Shown here piece after piece: positions 3,001-6,000 of a stretch of DNA of 64,000 bases. The stretch lies in the NCBI RefSeq assembly GCF_988243305.1, contig NZ_OZ547136.1; one strand, written 5' to 3'. Position 1 is the first letter of the stretch. Each line of letters begins with the position of its first letter. Position numbers: made by a program.

Positions 3001-6000
3001 GTATCTACCTTAACTTAATGATTTTTACCAAAATCATTAGGGGATTCATCAGCCCGCAGCAACTACAGAACGGTAAATAACATTACCCGGGGGAAGCATC
3101 CGGAGGCGAAACAATGAAACTGGCCCTGACGCTGGAAGCCGACAGCATTAACGTGCAGGCACTGAACATGGGGCGCATTGTCGTTGACGTCGATGGTGTT
3201 AATCTCGCTGAACTGTTTAATAAAGTCGCGGAAAATGGTTATTCACTCCGCGTGGTGGATGAGCGTGTCACTACCGAAACACCGGCGACCTCTGCCAGCC
3301 CTCATCAGTTGCCGGAAGACAATACAGTGATACAGAGCGTAATGCCATTAGCCACAGAAACGGCGCTGGATATTCTGATTGTGTGGCTGCAGGACAATAT
3401 CGACTGCGAATCGGGGATTATCTTCGACAACGATGAGGATAAAACGGATTCGGCAGCACTGTTGCCCTGCATTGAACAGGCCAGGGAAGATATCCATACC
3501 CTGCGCCAACTACAGCTTCTGCACCAGAACCGGTAAATATTACTCACCATACTTCATTCCACTGACGCCAGCCTGAACAGGGCTGGCGTTTTCATTTATC
3601 TGCAAAAAGGAAAAACGATTATGTCTGAAATCACAGTCTCCCGTCCGGAAGTGGTCAACGGACATACGGACGTTATCTGCTCAACCTCAGTCAGCCACAT
3701 TCTGGCTGTACGAAAGAGTACACTGTTGCAAATCGACATACTTATCCGGCAACTGGCTGAAATCTCAGCAATGACAGAAAGTATTGGCGGTAAAACCGCA
3801 CTGGACTGGGCCATGAAACAGGATTTTCGCTGCGGCTGCTGGCTCATGGAGAAACCTGAAACGGCAATGAAAGCCATTACCCGCAACCTTGACCGTGAAA
3901 TCTGGCGTGACCTGATGCAACGCTCCGGGATGCTGTCATTAATGGATGCGCAGACCCGTGATACATGGTACCGGTCACTGGAGTACGATAATTTTCCGGA
4001 AATCAGTGAAGCGAACATTATGAGCACATTTGAACAACTGCACCAGAATAAGGATGAGGTGTTTGAGCGGGGAGTGATTAACGTCTTCAGGGGACTGAGC
4101 TGGAATTATAAAACCAACTCTCCCTGTAAATTTGGCAGTAAAATTATCGTCAACAATCTGGTGAGATGGGGCCGGTGGGGATTTCATCTTATCACCGGAC
4201 CACAGACTGACCGGGTTGCCGACCTGGAAAGGATGCTGCATCTCTTCAGTGGCATCCCCACTCCCGACAACCGGGAAAATATCATAATTCGTCTGGATGA
4301 GCATATCCGGTCTGTTCAGGGTAAAGAGTACTATGAAGACGAAATGTTTATCATTAAATACTTTAAGAAGGGATCTGCACACATCACTTTCAAAAGGCTG
4401 GAACTGATTGACAGAATTAACGATATAATAGTCAGGCACTTTCCTTCTGTGCTCTCAGCCTGATCCCGAGTGTGATTCCCTTTCGATATCAAAAGGGACT
4501 GCGGGTATAATTGAGGGTACATTTTTAATCAAACCAAACAAATCAGATTAATATCAATATGATAAAAGAAATTTTCGATTCCGAGTCCGGCACCACTAAT
4601 TCTTAAGAACCCGCCCACAAGGCGGGTTTTTGCTTTTGGATCTGACAATAACCTTCACGAAAAAACTTAGCTTATAAGGTCTGGGGGAATTACTCTCGCC
4701 ACGTTAACGAGAGTAATTTTATTGATATTAATCTCCTGATACTTTACCCCCGTCCAAACTCCAGCCGCTGCACATTCACCATCCCAGGCTTCTCAGCAGC
4801 ACTGACATCAATTTGTGTCACCCGCAGCGCATATTTTTCATCCAGTGCGTTTAACCATTTCAGAAGGTCATTAAACACCACAGGTTCTATCCAGACCTGA
4901 ATATTCTCCCCACGCTCGGCTATCCGCTTGATGACCACCGAGTGCGCGGAAGCACTGTCACTGATGACCCGCGATACCTGCGCAGGCGTTGTTGTGGCAG
5001 ATTTTCGCGCTGCAATAATATCCGGCGCGGCGCTCTTCAGTCGGGTGTTCATTGCCACCAGCTGCTGCAACATCGTCTCCTGTTGTTCTATCCGTTCGCT
5101 CAACGGCTGCCAGATGAGGACGTAATATCCGGCGCTAAACAGGAACACCGCCGCTGCCAGTAACATGCCTTTTTCACGCGGAGAACGCCCCGCCAGGTGT
5201 TGTGTCAGCCAGTGTTCGCCACGGCTTAACTGGCGTTCACGCCATTGCTGAAAATAGTGAATAAATTTATCGCGTAACATGTTATTTCCTCCGCAACGTT
5301 ACGCCGCCGGAAACCGCATCACCCTCTTTCTGTAACGCGTCCTGTTGCACAACATAATCTGCCGCCAGTGCGCTACGCAGTTTGTCGAAGCTGGCAAAGT
5401 TTGCAGCCCGTAGCTGAAGGTGAAGCGTCTGGCGTTTTTGATCAAAGGTGAAACCACGCATTTCGATGTCGGTAAGTGACGCTGATTTCAGGGTACTGGC
5501 GATCGCTGACAATTCTGCGAGCAGCCGGGTATCGTCGGCCTGCGGGCGATATTTTTTCAGCGCCATCGTCACCTGGGAACGCAAATTCACAATCCGCTTC
5601 TGCTCCGGGAACAGTGTTAAGAACTTTTTTTCCGCCTGGGTGCGGCTTTGCGCCACCTGTTCGCTGACGCTCCATAACGTCACGCCCCGTTCCACTACCA
5701 GCGCAACCAGAATCAGCAATATCGGCAGAATCATCACCCGCCAGCGCGCCCACTGTTTTCGGTAGCTGACACGAGGCTGCCACGGCCCTGTTAGCAGGTT
5801 CCCTTCCGGTTCGCCATAAGTGGTAATGGCTGGCAGAGCCGTAACGGTCAGGCGTTCGGCGTCCGCACCAGCCCATGCAGATAGTTCTTCCGGTGCAATG
5901 CCGACCACGGTTAGCGAAAGCGGTAAATTCTGCTCATTGAGCTGTGCACGGAACATGACCGGAGCCAGCGCCCGCCCGGCGCTCCATCCCCGGCATTCAT

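What the first reader, a model, noticed from the sequence alone, without database searches (positions are those of the whole stretch)
4575..4637. Right boundary of a pheV-integrated genomic island: tRNA-Phe 3'-end direct repeat plus displaced terminator
Seen in sequence: a 22-nt copy of the tRNA-Phe 3' end (one G missing from the GGG run) with no tRNA body, followed by a strong rho-independent terminator and then the core gene gspM. Established knowledge: integrases targeting tRNA genes duplicate the tRNA 3' end, leaving an attR repeat with the original downstream terminator at the distal island boundary; pheV lies next to yghD/gspM in K-12. Everything to the left (Tn10, IS elements, two cargo ORFs) is therefore horizontally acquired.
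Basis: partly seen in the sequence, partly recalled or inferred. Interest (0 to 1): 0.5.

Follow-up and report, generated by a model that had tools for sequence, protein, structure and literature searches.

The report
Right end of pheV genomic island

Summary
TTCGATTCCGAGTCCGGCACCA lies at 4574-4595, one base left of the stated start. It is the last 23 nt of tRNA-Phe minus one G. It is followed by the same hairpin terminator (4606-4637) that directly follows pheV in K-12, then by yghD/gspM (4744-5280, minus strand). No tRNA gene exists in the window.

Similarity to the empty K-12 site starts exactly at 4574. Similarity to the same island end at another site (pheU) stops exactly at 4595. The 22-mer is therefore the att core.

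Two isolates of the same clone (1 SNP in 14.4 kb of flank) have an empty pheV site. DNA at 3053-4573 is the conserved right-end module of P4-type pheV/pheU islands. It includes two tandem 12-mers (4500-4523) placed like the annotated arm repeats of phage P4 attP. DNA at 1-3052 is the tetD end of Tn10, whose IS10 is split by an IS1203/IS629 element.

This exact attR is listed for many strains in PLoS Genet 2024 (PMC11537424). About 1171 of 5426 complete E. coli genomes carry the junction.

One addition: the missing G follows the island type, not the chromosome. That places strand exchange in the last 7 bp (GGCACCA).

The intact pheV and integrase lie outside the window and could not be checked. 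Already known; low interest.

The parts
1..414 (+). 3' end of tetD, the AraC/MarA-type regulator gene of Tn10. The ORF is cut by the window start and its stop codon lies inside the IS10 inner end.
   Evidence: NCBIfam gives RobA/SoxS/MarA-type hits. In E. coli 23CRST009 the same DNA lies in the order tetR(B)-tet(B)-tetC-tetD-IS10.
411..3052 (-). IS10-right of Tn10. The inner end CTGAGAGATCCCC is at 411 and the outer end ...GGGGATTCATCAG is at 3052. The transposase is on the minus strand and is interrupted by another IS.
   Evidence: The ends were read. Rfam finds RNA-OUT at 2938-3007. Megablast matches to ISVsa5/IS10 end at 3052. The span fits 1329 + 1310 + 3 bp.
579..1888 (+). IS1203/IS629-type IS3-family element, 1310 bp, inserted in IS10 with a 3-bp CTG target duplication (576-578 and 1889-1891).
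   Evidence: Inverted ends TGAACCGCCCCGGG...CCCGGGGCGGTTCA were read. ORFs lie at 633-959 and 956-1846. The ALIL frameshift pseudoknot is at 914-1030. RefSeq names the match IS1203 family.
3053..4573 (+). Conserved right-end module of a P4-type pheV/pheU island. It comprises the last 64 bp of a cbtA toxin gene cut by Tn10, a 140-aa ORF (3114-3536, DUF5983_N type), a 280-aa DUF4942 ORF (3621-4463), and the P arm of the attachment site.
   Evidence: It is 99.9% identical to island ends in L005, L010 and L011 (pheU site) and L006. Window 3053 corresponds to L011 position 9433, inside cbtA at 9120-9497.
4500..4523 (+). Two tandem 12-mers, CTGCGGGTATAA and TTGAGGGTACAT. They are candidate arm-type integrase binding sites on the P arm.
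   Evidence: Related copies lie on the integrase side of the AB56 island (TGTGGGTATAA, TTGCGGGTATAC, and an inverted GAGGGTACA just before the int ATG). Phage P4 attP has annotated arm repeats in the same layout. The P4 P-arm pair ends 73 bp before the end of the core, against 72 bp here. The motif is kept in island ends that are only 88-91% identical. Binding is inferred, not shown.
4574..4595 (+). attR core: a 22-nt copy of the tRNA-Phe 3' end (T loop to CCA) lacking one G.
   Evidence: The boundaries are fixed from both sides. The published attR is TTCGATTCCGAGTCCGG-CACCA.
4589..4595 (+). GGCACCA, the inferred overlap (strand-exchange) segment. It is the only stretch identical in island and chromosome that lies 3' of the indel.
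   Evidence: This is an inference. In one clone the empty site has GGG, one island type has GGG in attR, and this island type has GG.
4606..4637 (+). The native pheV intrinsic terminator (hairpin AGAACCCGCC-CACAA-GGCGGGTTTT, T-rich tail), moved away from pheV by the island.
   Evidence: Terminator scan and RNA fold. It is identical to the sequence directly after pheV in MG1655 and in same-clone empty sites. Termination itself was not tested.
4744..5280 (-). yghD/gspM, the first core gene. It is followed by the complete gsp type II secretion cluster.
   Evidence: ORF list, RefSeq annotation of matching loci, and synteny with K-12.

Best explanation

The circular island carried an attP with three parts:
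- a P arm with arm-type repeats (window 4500-4523);
- an imperfect copy of the tRNA 3' end, one G short;
- on the integrase side, its own terminator.

Recombination with pheV most likely exchanged strands inside the last 7 bp (GGCACCA). Two consequences follow:
- pheV stays intact at the far (left) end, outside the window, and is now followed by the island's terminator and the integrase gene.
- The island's decayed tRNA-like copy ends up at the right end, fused to the original pheV terminator (4606-4637) and the core gene yghD.

Later, Tn10 inserted into the island's cbtA gene (junction 3052/3053), and an IS1203/IS629 element inserted into IS10-right.

Shown: the repeat, both of its boundaries, the empty site in the same clone, the island-end module, the P4-like arm-repeat layout, and the Tn10 and IS structure.

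Inferred: the position of strand exchange, integrase binding at the 12-mers, terminator activity, and the presence of intact pheV plus integrase upstream in this genome.
For: - The repeat is present and is not chance.
- There is no tRNA body in the window.
- Similarity to the empty K-12 site starts at 4574.
- Similarity to the same island end at the pheU site stops at 4595. Different DNA follows the CCA at the pheU and pheV sites.
- Same-clone isolates L044 and L048 have the empty yqgA-pheV-yghD arrangement. L044 differs by 1 SNP over 14.4 kb.
- AB56 has tRNA-Phe, a 421-aa integrase, about 55.7 kb of island, and then the same attR. Its integrase is 54.9% identical to P4 Int over 97% of its length, with Arm-DNA-bind_3, Phage_int_M and Phage_integrase domains.
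- The arm-repeat layout matches the annotated P4 attP.
- The island supplies a replacement terminator after pheV in AB56.
- GC content is 44-49% left of the junction and 55-60% in the gsp genes to the right.
- The attR string is listed for APEC O1, S88, ED1a, H10407, 12009, 55989, O104:H4 strains and others.
- The junction probe covers at least 80% in 1171 of 5426 complete genomes.
- For the crossover position: GG occurs in 18 of the 19 attR copies with this core read from the related loci, at both pheV and pheU and with diverged island flanks, while full-length genes are GGG in all but 22 of 5429 records. In one clone the G-run state of attR differs between two island types.
Against: - The left boundary (intact pheV, integrase) of this genome is outside the window, and the source genome was not found.
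- The Tn10 insertion could have come with a deletion or rearrangement of the island's left part.
- 22 complete genomes have a full-length tRNA-Phe gene with the GG allele, including one empty pheV site (TW10590). This shows that recombination 5' of the G run also happens.
- No excision or integration experiment is available here.
Confidence: 0.93

Rival explanations
1. Same attR, but strand exchange lies 5' of the G run, in the T loop or at the junction of the T and acceptor stems. On this reading the 15 nt after the T loop, including the G run, are the displaced original end of chromosomal pheV, and the missing G is later decay of that dead fragment.
For: The Islander paper states the general rule that the island restores the gene and a displaced fragment marks the far end. 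It lists crossover sub-sites at the anticodon loop, the T loop and the T/acceptor junction. An empty pheV site with the GG allele exists (TW10590), as do GG alleles in full-length genes next to island DNA.
Against: In one clone (1 SNP per 14.4 kb) the empty site has GGG, another island's attR has GGG, and this island's attR has GG. The identical one-G loss is found at both pheV and pheU, and with island flanks only 88-91% identical, while the rest of the 22-mer shows no decay at all.
Confidence: 0.15
2. The junction is a fossil. The island in this genome is truncated or rearranged on its left side, for example by a Tn10- or IS-mediated deletion. It is then no longer bounded by an integrase and an intact pheV and can no longer excise.
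For: Tn10 sits 1.5 kb from the end, inside cbtA, and a second IS is nested in it. The published survey reports many GI-pheV with lost parts and 14 of 41 without a recognisable attR. Look-ups for the predicted junction proteins of a simple Tn10 insertion found nothing.
Against: The right end, P arm and core are intact and 99.9% identical to those of complete islands. Absence from the look-up index is weak evidence, because draft assemblies break at IS copies.
Confidence: 0.25
3. The 22-mer is a chance match or a pseudo-tRNA fragment unrelated to integration.
For: None beyond the fact that it is short.
Against: None of 100 shuffles gave a match even with 3 mismatches allowed. The 22-mer sits exactly where similarity to the empty site begins and where similarity to the island at another locus ends. 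The same junction is present in over a thousand genomes.
Confidence: 0.01

Closest known systems
GI-pheV of E. coli (islands with intP4 integrases; PLoS Genet 2024, PMC11537424)
   Same: Same site (pheV, next to yghD or the kps locus). The attR string is the same, TTCGATTCCGAGTCCGG-CACCA, listed in that paper's Table 1 for APEC O1, S88, ED1a, H10407, 12009, CB9615, 55989 and O104:H4 strains. The right-end gene module is the same.
   Different: This copy carries Tn10 inserted in cbtA, with IS10-right itself split by IS1203/IS629. No complete E. coli genome in the collection has that junction. The host is a lineage at most 98.9% identical to any of 5426 complete genomes over 20 kb of core.
Satellite phage P4 attP / leuX integration
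   Same: The integrase of the related complete island is 54.9% identical to P4 Int and has the same three domains. The core ends at the CCA of a tRNA gene. Two tandem 12-bp arm repeats end 72 bp (here) or 73 bp (P4) before the end of the core, and two tandem repeats plus one inverted repeat lie before int.
   Different: The target is tRNA-Phe, not tRNA-Leu (leuX). The arm-repeat consensus is TGnGGGTAYA, against TGGGGGCAYA in P4. The element is a large island with no P4 replication or capsid-size genes in the part seen.
she pathogenicity island (SHI-1) of Shigella flexneri 2a
   Same: From memory of Al-Hasani et al. 2001 and Sakellaris et al. 2004, which are cited but were not readable here: it is inserted at pheV, bounded by a 22-bp imperfect repeat of the pheV 3' end, and excised by its own P4-type integrase.
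   Different: No she, pic or sigA cargo is visible in the window. The host is not Shigella-like, since the 59 kb of core carries no IS elements.
K-12 cryptic elements CP4-44, CP4-6 and CP4-57, and the pheU scar (yjdQ)
   Same: The gene set at the island end is the same (antirestriction, RadC-like, DUF987, CbeA/CbtA, DUF5983/DUF957, DUF4942). About 240 bp downstream of K-12 pheU aligns with the left end of GI-pheV. That stretch includes the terminator and the first codons of int.
   Different: Those elements are at other sites or are reduced to a scar. Here the right end is complete.

Membership tests
tRNA-integrated genomic island of the P4-integrase type (GI-pheV): attR boundary | A direct repeat of the 3' end of the target tRNA gene at the boundary far from the tRNA gene, with no tRNA body | tested here: met
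   The 22-mer at 4574-4595 equals the pheV 3' end minus one G. No tRNA gene is found in the window. Zero matches in 100 shuffles.
tRNA-integrated genomic island of the P4-integrase type (GI-pheV): attR boundary | Beyond the repeat, the chromosome continues as in genomes with an empty site | tested here: met
   K-12 similarity runs from 4574 onward. Same-clone empty sites L044 and L048 are identical from the core onward, and L044 has 1 SNP in 14.4 kb.
tRNA-integrated genomic island of the P4-integrase type (GI-pheV): attR boundary | The DNA inside the repeat is island DNA that is also found at other att sites | tested here: met
   3053-4595 is 99.9% identical to island ends next to cadC (pheU). 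The similarity ends at 4595.
tRNA-integrated genomic island of the P4-integrase type (GI-pheV): attR boundary | Intact tRNA gene followed by a P4-type tyrosine integrase at the other boundary | not testable with these tools
   This lies outside the window, and the source genome was not found. In AB56, which has the same island end, the feature is met: tRNA-Phe, then a 421-aa Int that is 54.9% identical to P4 Int.
tRNA-integrated genomic island of the P4-integrase type (GI-pheV): attR boundary | Arm-type repeats flanking the core, as in P4 attP | tested here: met
   Tandem 12-mers at 4500-4523 end 72 bp before the end of the core, against 73 bp in annotated P4. Related copies lie on the int side of AB56. 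Protein binding was not tested.
tRNA-integrated genomic island of the P4-integrase type (GI-pheV): attR boundary | Integrase-dependent excision and integration at this core | not testable with these tools
   This needs an experiment. Indirect support comes from occupied and empty sites within one clone.
Intrinsic (rho-independent) terminator | A G+C-rich hairpin followed by a T run, placed after a transcription unit | tested here: met
   The scan finds 12 pairs (6 of them G-C), a loop of 5 and a T-rich tail. The fold z-score is -3.07. In K-12 and in same-clone empty sites it lies about 10 nt after the pheV CCA. Activity was not tested.
Tn10 | tetD next to IS10-right, with IS10 ends and RNA-OUT | tested here: met
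   tetD 3' end at 1-414. IS10 ends at 411 and 3052. RNA-OUT at 2938-3007. The gene order was confirmed in 23CRST009. tet(B), tetR and IS10-left lie outside the window.

The most novel reading that the evidence does not exclude
The one-base difference between this attR and pheV works as a natural marker for the crossover. It would show that P4-type pheV/pheU integrases exchange strands only within the last 7 bp of the tRNA gene (GGCACCA).

On this reading the tRNA gene is never split. The tRNA-like 15 nt in the island's attP would be an integrase-binding look-alike, not a gene-restoring segment. Only the terminator would be swapped.

The rare full-length tRNA-Phe genes with the GG allele (22 of 5429 records) would then be scars of island loss by a different, non-integrase route.
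Probability: 0.55. Interest if true: 0.25.

Novelty: already known. Interest (0 to 1): 0.1.

Why it matters
The junction gives a base-exact right boundary (4595/4596) between horizontally acquired DNA and the core chromosome. That is useful for annotation and for sizing the island.

It shows that a tetracycline-resistance transposon (Tn10) is carried inside a chromosomal pheV island in an uncommon E. coli lineage.

The same-clone comparison (two empty sites and two different islands) shows how quickly the pheV site turns over.

None of this changes current understanding, because this attR type and this island family are already described.

Tried and rejected
- **Finding the source genome, to see pheV and int upstream.** An exact look-up of the IS10::IS1203 hybrid transposase ORF and of a predicted CbtA::IS10 fusion found nothing. 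Look-ups with DUF4942, GspK, GspL, SslE and GspH gave relatives, including the same clone, but not the Tn10-bearing contig. No complete E. coli genome has the Tn10/island junction.
- **Shigella origin.** I considered it because of the she island and Tn10. I rejected it because the 59 kb of core is free of IS elements and the genes look intact.
- **E. coli 042 (Tn2411).** Checked and rejected.
- **23CRST009.** It also has IS1203 in IS10-right, but at a different position and in a different context.
- **Papers not held.** Sakellaris 2004 and Williams 2002 could not be read, so statements about them rest on memory or on citing papers.
- **Walking the NIPH17_0036 island to its attL.** Abandoned, because the island exceeds 50 kb.
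- **Whole-collection scans.** Scans of genome contigs and metagenome contigs were not run. The cost was not justified for a known feature.

Full report
**Observation.** The window reads ...aaaagaaatt TTCGATTCCGAGTCCGGCACCA ctaattcttaagaacccgcccacaaggcgggtttttgcttttgg.... MG1655 pheV ends TTCGATTCCGAGTCCGGGCACCA, so the window copy lacks one G of the GGG run. ARAGORN finds no tRNA gene in the whole window. The 22-mer is unique in the window even with three mismatches allowed, and none of 100 shuffles produced a match. A terminator-like hairpin with a T-rich tail follows at about 4606-4637. yghD/gspM is the minus-strand ORF at 4744-5280.

**Boundaries.** Two independent comparisons fix the core to the base.
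- Similarity to the empty K-12 site (yqgA-pheV-terminator-yghD) begins at 4574. It runs on through the terminator, yghD and, with K-12-specific gaps, to the end of the window.
- The DNA left of the core (3053-4595) is 99.9% identical to island ends that lie next to cadC, the pheU site. That similarity stops at 4595, after which the pheU copies continue with a different terminator.

The overlap of the two similarities, 4574-4595, is therefore the attachment core.

**Same-clone controls.** An exact look-up of the window's GspH protein returned close relatives.
- L044 and L050 differ from the window by a single SNP (position 7820) over 4596-18964.
- L048 is equally close by BLAST, 99.979% identical, with one mismatch and two gaps.
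- L044 and L048 have an empty site: full-length pheV with GGG, the same terminator, then yghD.
- L050 has a different island whose attR reads TTTCATTCCGAGTCCGGGCACCA.

The island is therefore a recent gain, or a recent loss in the sister isolates, at a site that changes quickly.

**What lies to the left.**
- Positions 3053-4573 are the conserved end module of pheV/pheU islands. They hold the last 64 bp of a cbtA toxin gene, a 140-aa ORF (DUF5983_N type), and a 280-aa DUF4942 ORF. The 280-aa product is identical to proteins in thousands of assemblies. These are backbone genes, not cargo.
- Positions 411-3052 are IS10-right of Tn10. The inner and outer ends were read, and RNA-OUT lies at 2938-3007.
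- IS10-right is interrupted at 579-1888 by a 1310-bp IS1203/IS629-type element with a CTG duplication. Its ALIL pseudoknot lies at 914-1030.
- Positions 1-414 are the end of tetD.
- The outer end of IS10 abuts cbtA, so Tn10 sits inside the island.
- GC content is 44-49% left of the junction and 55-60% in the gsp genes to the right.

**The other boundary, seen in a relative.** In the complete genome AB56, which has the same island end and the same attR, the order is yqgA, tRNA-Phe, a 421-aa tyrosine recombinase, about 55.7 kb of island (pap genes and others), DUF4942, attR, yghD. That integrase is 54.9% identical to phage P4 Int over 97% of its length. It has Arm-DNA-bind_3, Phage_int_M and Phage_integrase domains. 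I could not see this boundary in the source genome.

**Attachment-site anatomy.**
- The window carries two tandem 12-mers, CTGCGGGTATAA and TTGAGGGTACAT, at 4500-4523.
- Related copies lie on the integrase side of the AB56 island: two tandem copies, plus an inverted one just before the int start codon.
- The annotated attP of P4 has the same plan. Its P-arm pair ends 73 bp before the end of the core (72 bp here). Two tandem repeats and one inverted repeat lie before int.
- The P4 core, like this one, ends at the CCA of its target tRNA.
- The 12-mers are kept in island ends that are otherwise only 88-91% identical.

I read them as arm-type integrase sites. Binding was not tested.

**The terminator.** In AB56 the sequence after the pheV CCA is aattcatatcaacggacctccacggaggtccgttttt, an island-borne terminator. 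The same sequence follows pheU in K-12. There it continues into the start of a degenerate integrase gene (yjdQ), so K-12 pheU carries the left-end scar of such an island.

**Where strands are exchanged (inference).**
- The GG form is present in 18 of the 19 attR copies with this core that I read from the related loci. It occurs at pheV and at pheU, and next to diverged island flanks.
- Full-length tRNA-Phe genes are GGG in all but 22 of 5429 records.
- Within one clone, the empty site and another island's attR have GGG, while this island's attR has GG.
- The G-run state of attR therefore travels with the island. That is only possible if exchange occurs 3' of the run.
- The only shared sequence there is GGCACCA. 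Its 7-bp length matches, from my own knowledge, the overlap region of lambda-type tyrosine integrases.

On this reading pheV is never split, and the first 15 nt of the repeat are island DNA.

Against this, full-length genes with GG do exist: at an empty pheV site (TW10590), before kps (M9682-C1), and next to island DNA (C7, EcPF5). Recombination 5' of the run therefore also occurs. The general literature places some crossovers at the T loop or at the T/acceptor junction. I put the 7-bp model at about 0.55 overall.

**Comparison with what is known.** A 2024 survey of GI-pheV lists TTCGATTCCGAGTCCGG-CACCA as the attR of many strains and describes the intP4 integrases and the yee-type end module. 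A probe across the junction (4545-4625) is covered at 80% or more in 1171 of 5426 complete E. coli genomes. The finding is a correct reading of a well-described structure.

**Host.** The core DNA is E. coli. It is 96-98% identical to K-12 and at most 98.9% identical to any complete RefSeq genome over 20 kb. It is 99.99% identical to draft assemblies GCA_031347665.1 and GCA_044017555.1.

**Verdict.** Observation confirmed, interpretation supported, already known, low interest.

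Noticed in passing
window 411-3052, with 579-1888 nested: IS10-right of Tn10, the copy that normally supplies transposase, is split by a 1310-bp IS1203/IS629-type element with a 3-bp CTG duplication. Tn10 here probably depends on IS10-left or is immobile.
   Followed up: partly
window 3052/3053: The outer end of Tn10 is inserted 64 bp before the end of the island's cbtA toxin gene. No complete E. coli genome in the collection shares this junction.
   Followed up: partly
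E. coli complete genomes, e.g. NZ_CP035850.1 2123844-2123918 (L040), NZ_CP024275.1 (L037), NZ_CP010240.1 (L038), NZ_CP054236.1 (L039): 22 of 5429 records carry a full-length but 75-nt tRNA-Phe gene with the same one-G loss. The acceptor stem is shortened, so the tRNA is probably defective. It occurs at an empty pheV site, before kps, and directly next to island DNA. These look like scars of island loss by recombination 5' of the G run.
   Followed up: partly
L035 (MG1655 4362100-4362627) versus L033 38032-38560: About 240 bp downstream of K-12 pheU aligns with the left end of GI-pheV: terminator, int promoter region and the first codons of int (the yjdQ pseudogene). The 'native' pheU terminator of K-12 is therefore island-derived.
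   Followed up: yes
L044, L048, L050 and the window (same clone); L047, L052, L030: Within one clone the pheV site is empty in two isolates, holds this island in the window, and holds a different island in L050. Related lineages carry an ICE-like element (ParA, DnaB) whose repeat is longer and starts in the anticodon stem (gggattgaaaatcccc...).
   Followed up: partly
window 6246-14243: The gsp type II secretion cluster is complete (gspC to gspM), and a full-length sslE/yghJ lies next to it at 16672-21243. K-12 has a deletion across 6246-14243.
   Followed up: no
window 32343-40730: About 8.4 kb is absent from K-12, which has IS5 at this place. The region encodes a fatty acyl-AMP ligase, an SDR epimerase/reductase, a serine palmitoyltransferase-type enzyme, and LptF/LptG paralogues.
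   Followed up: partly
window 4690-4723: A second perfect hairpin (aattactctcg...cgagagtaatt) with a T run lies between the pheV terminator and the end of yghD. It is also present in K-12.
   Followed up: no
window 23481-23702: Rfam matches the C0719 sRNA between glcA and glcB at 299 bits.
   Followed up: no
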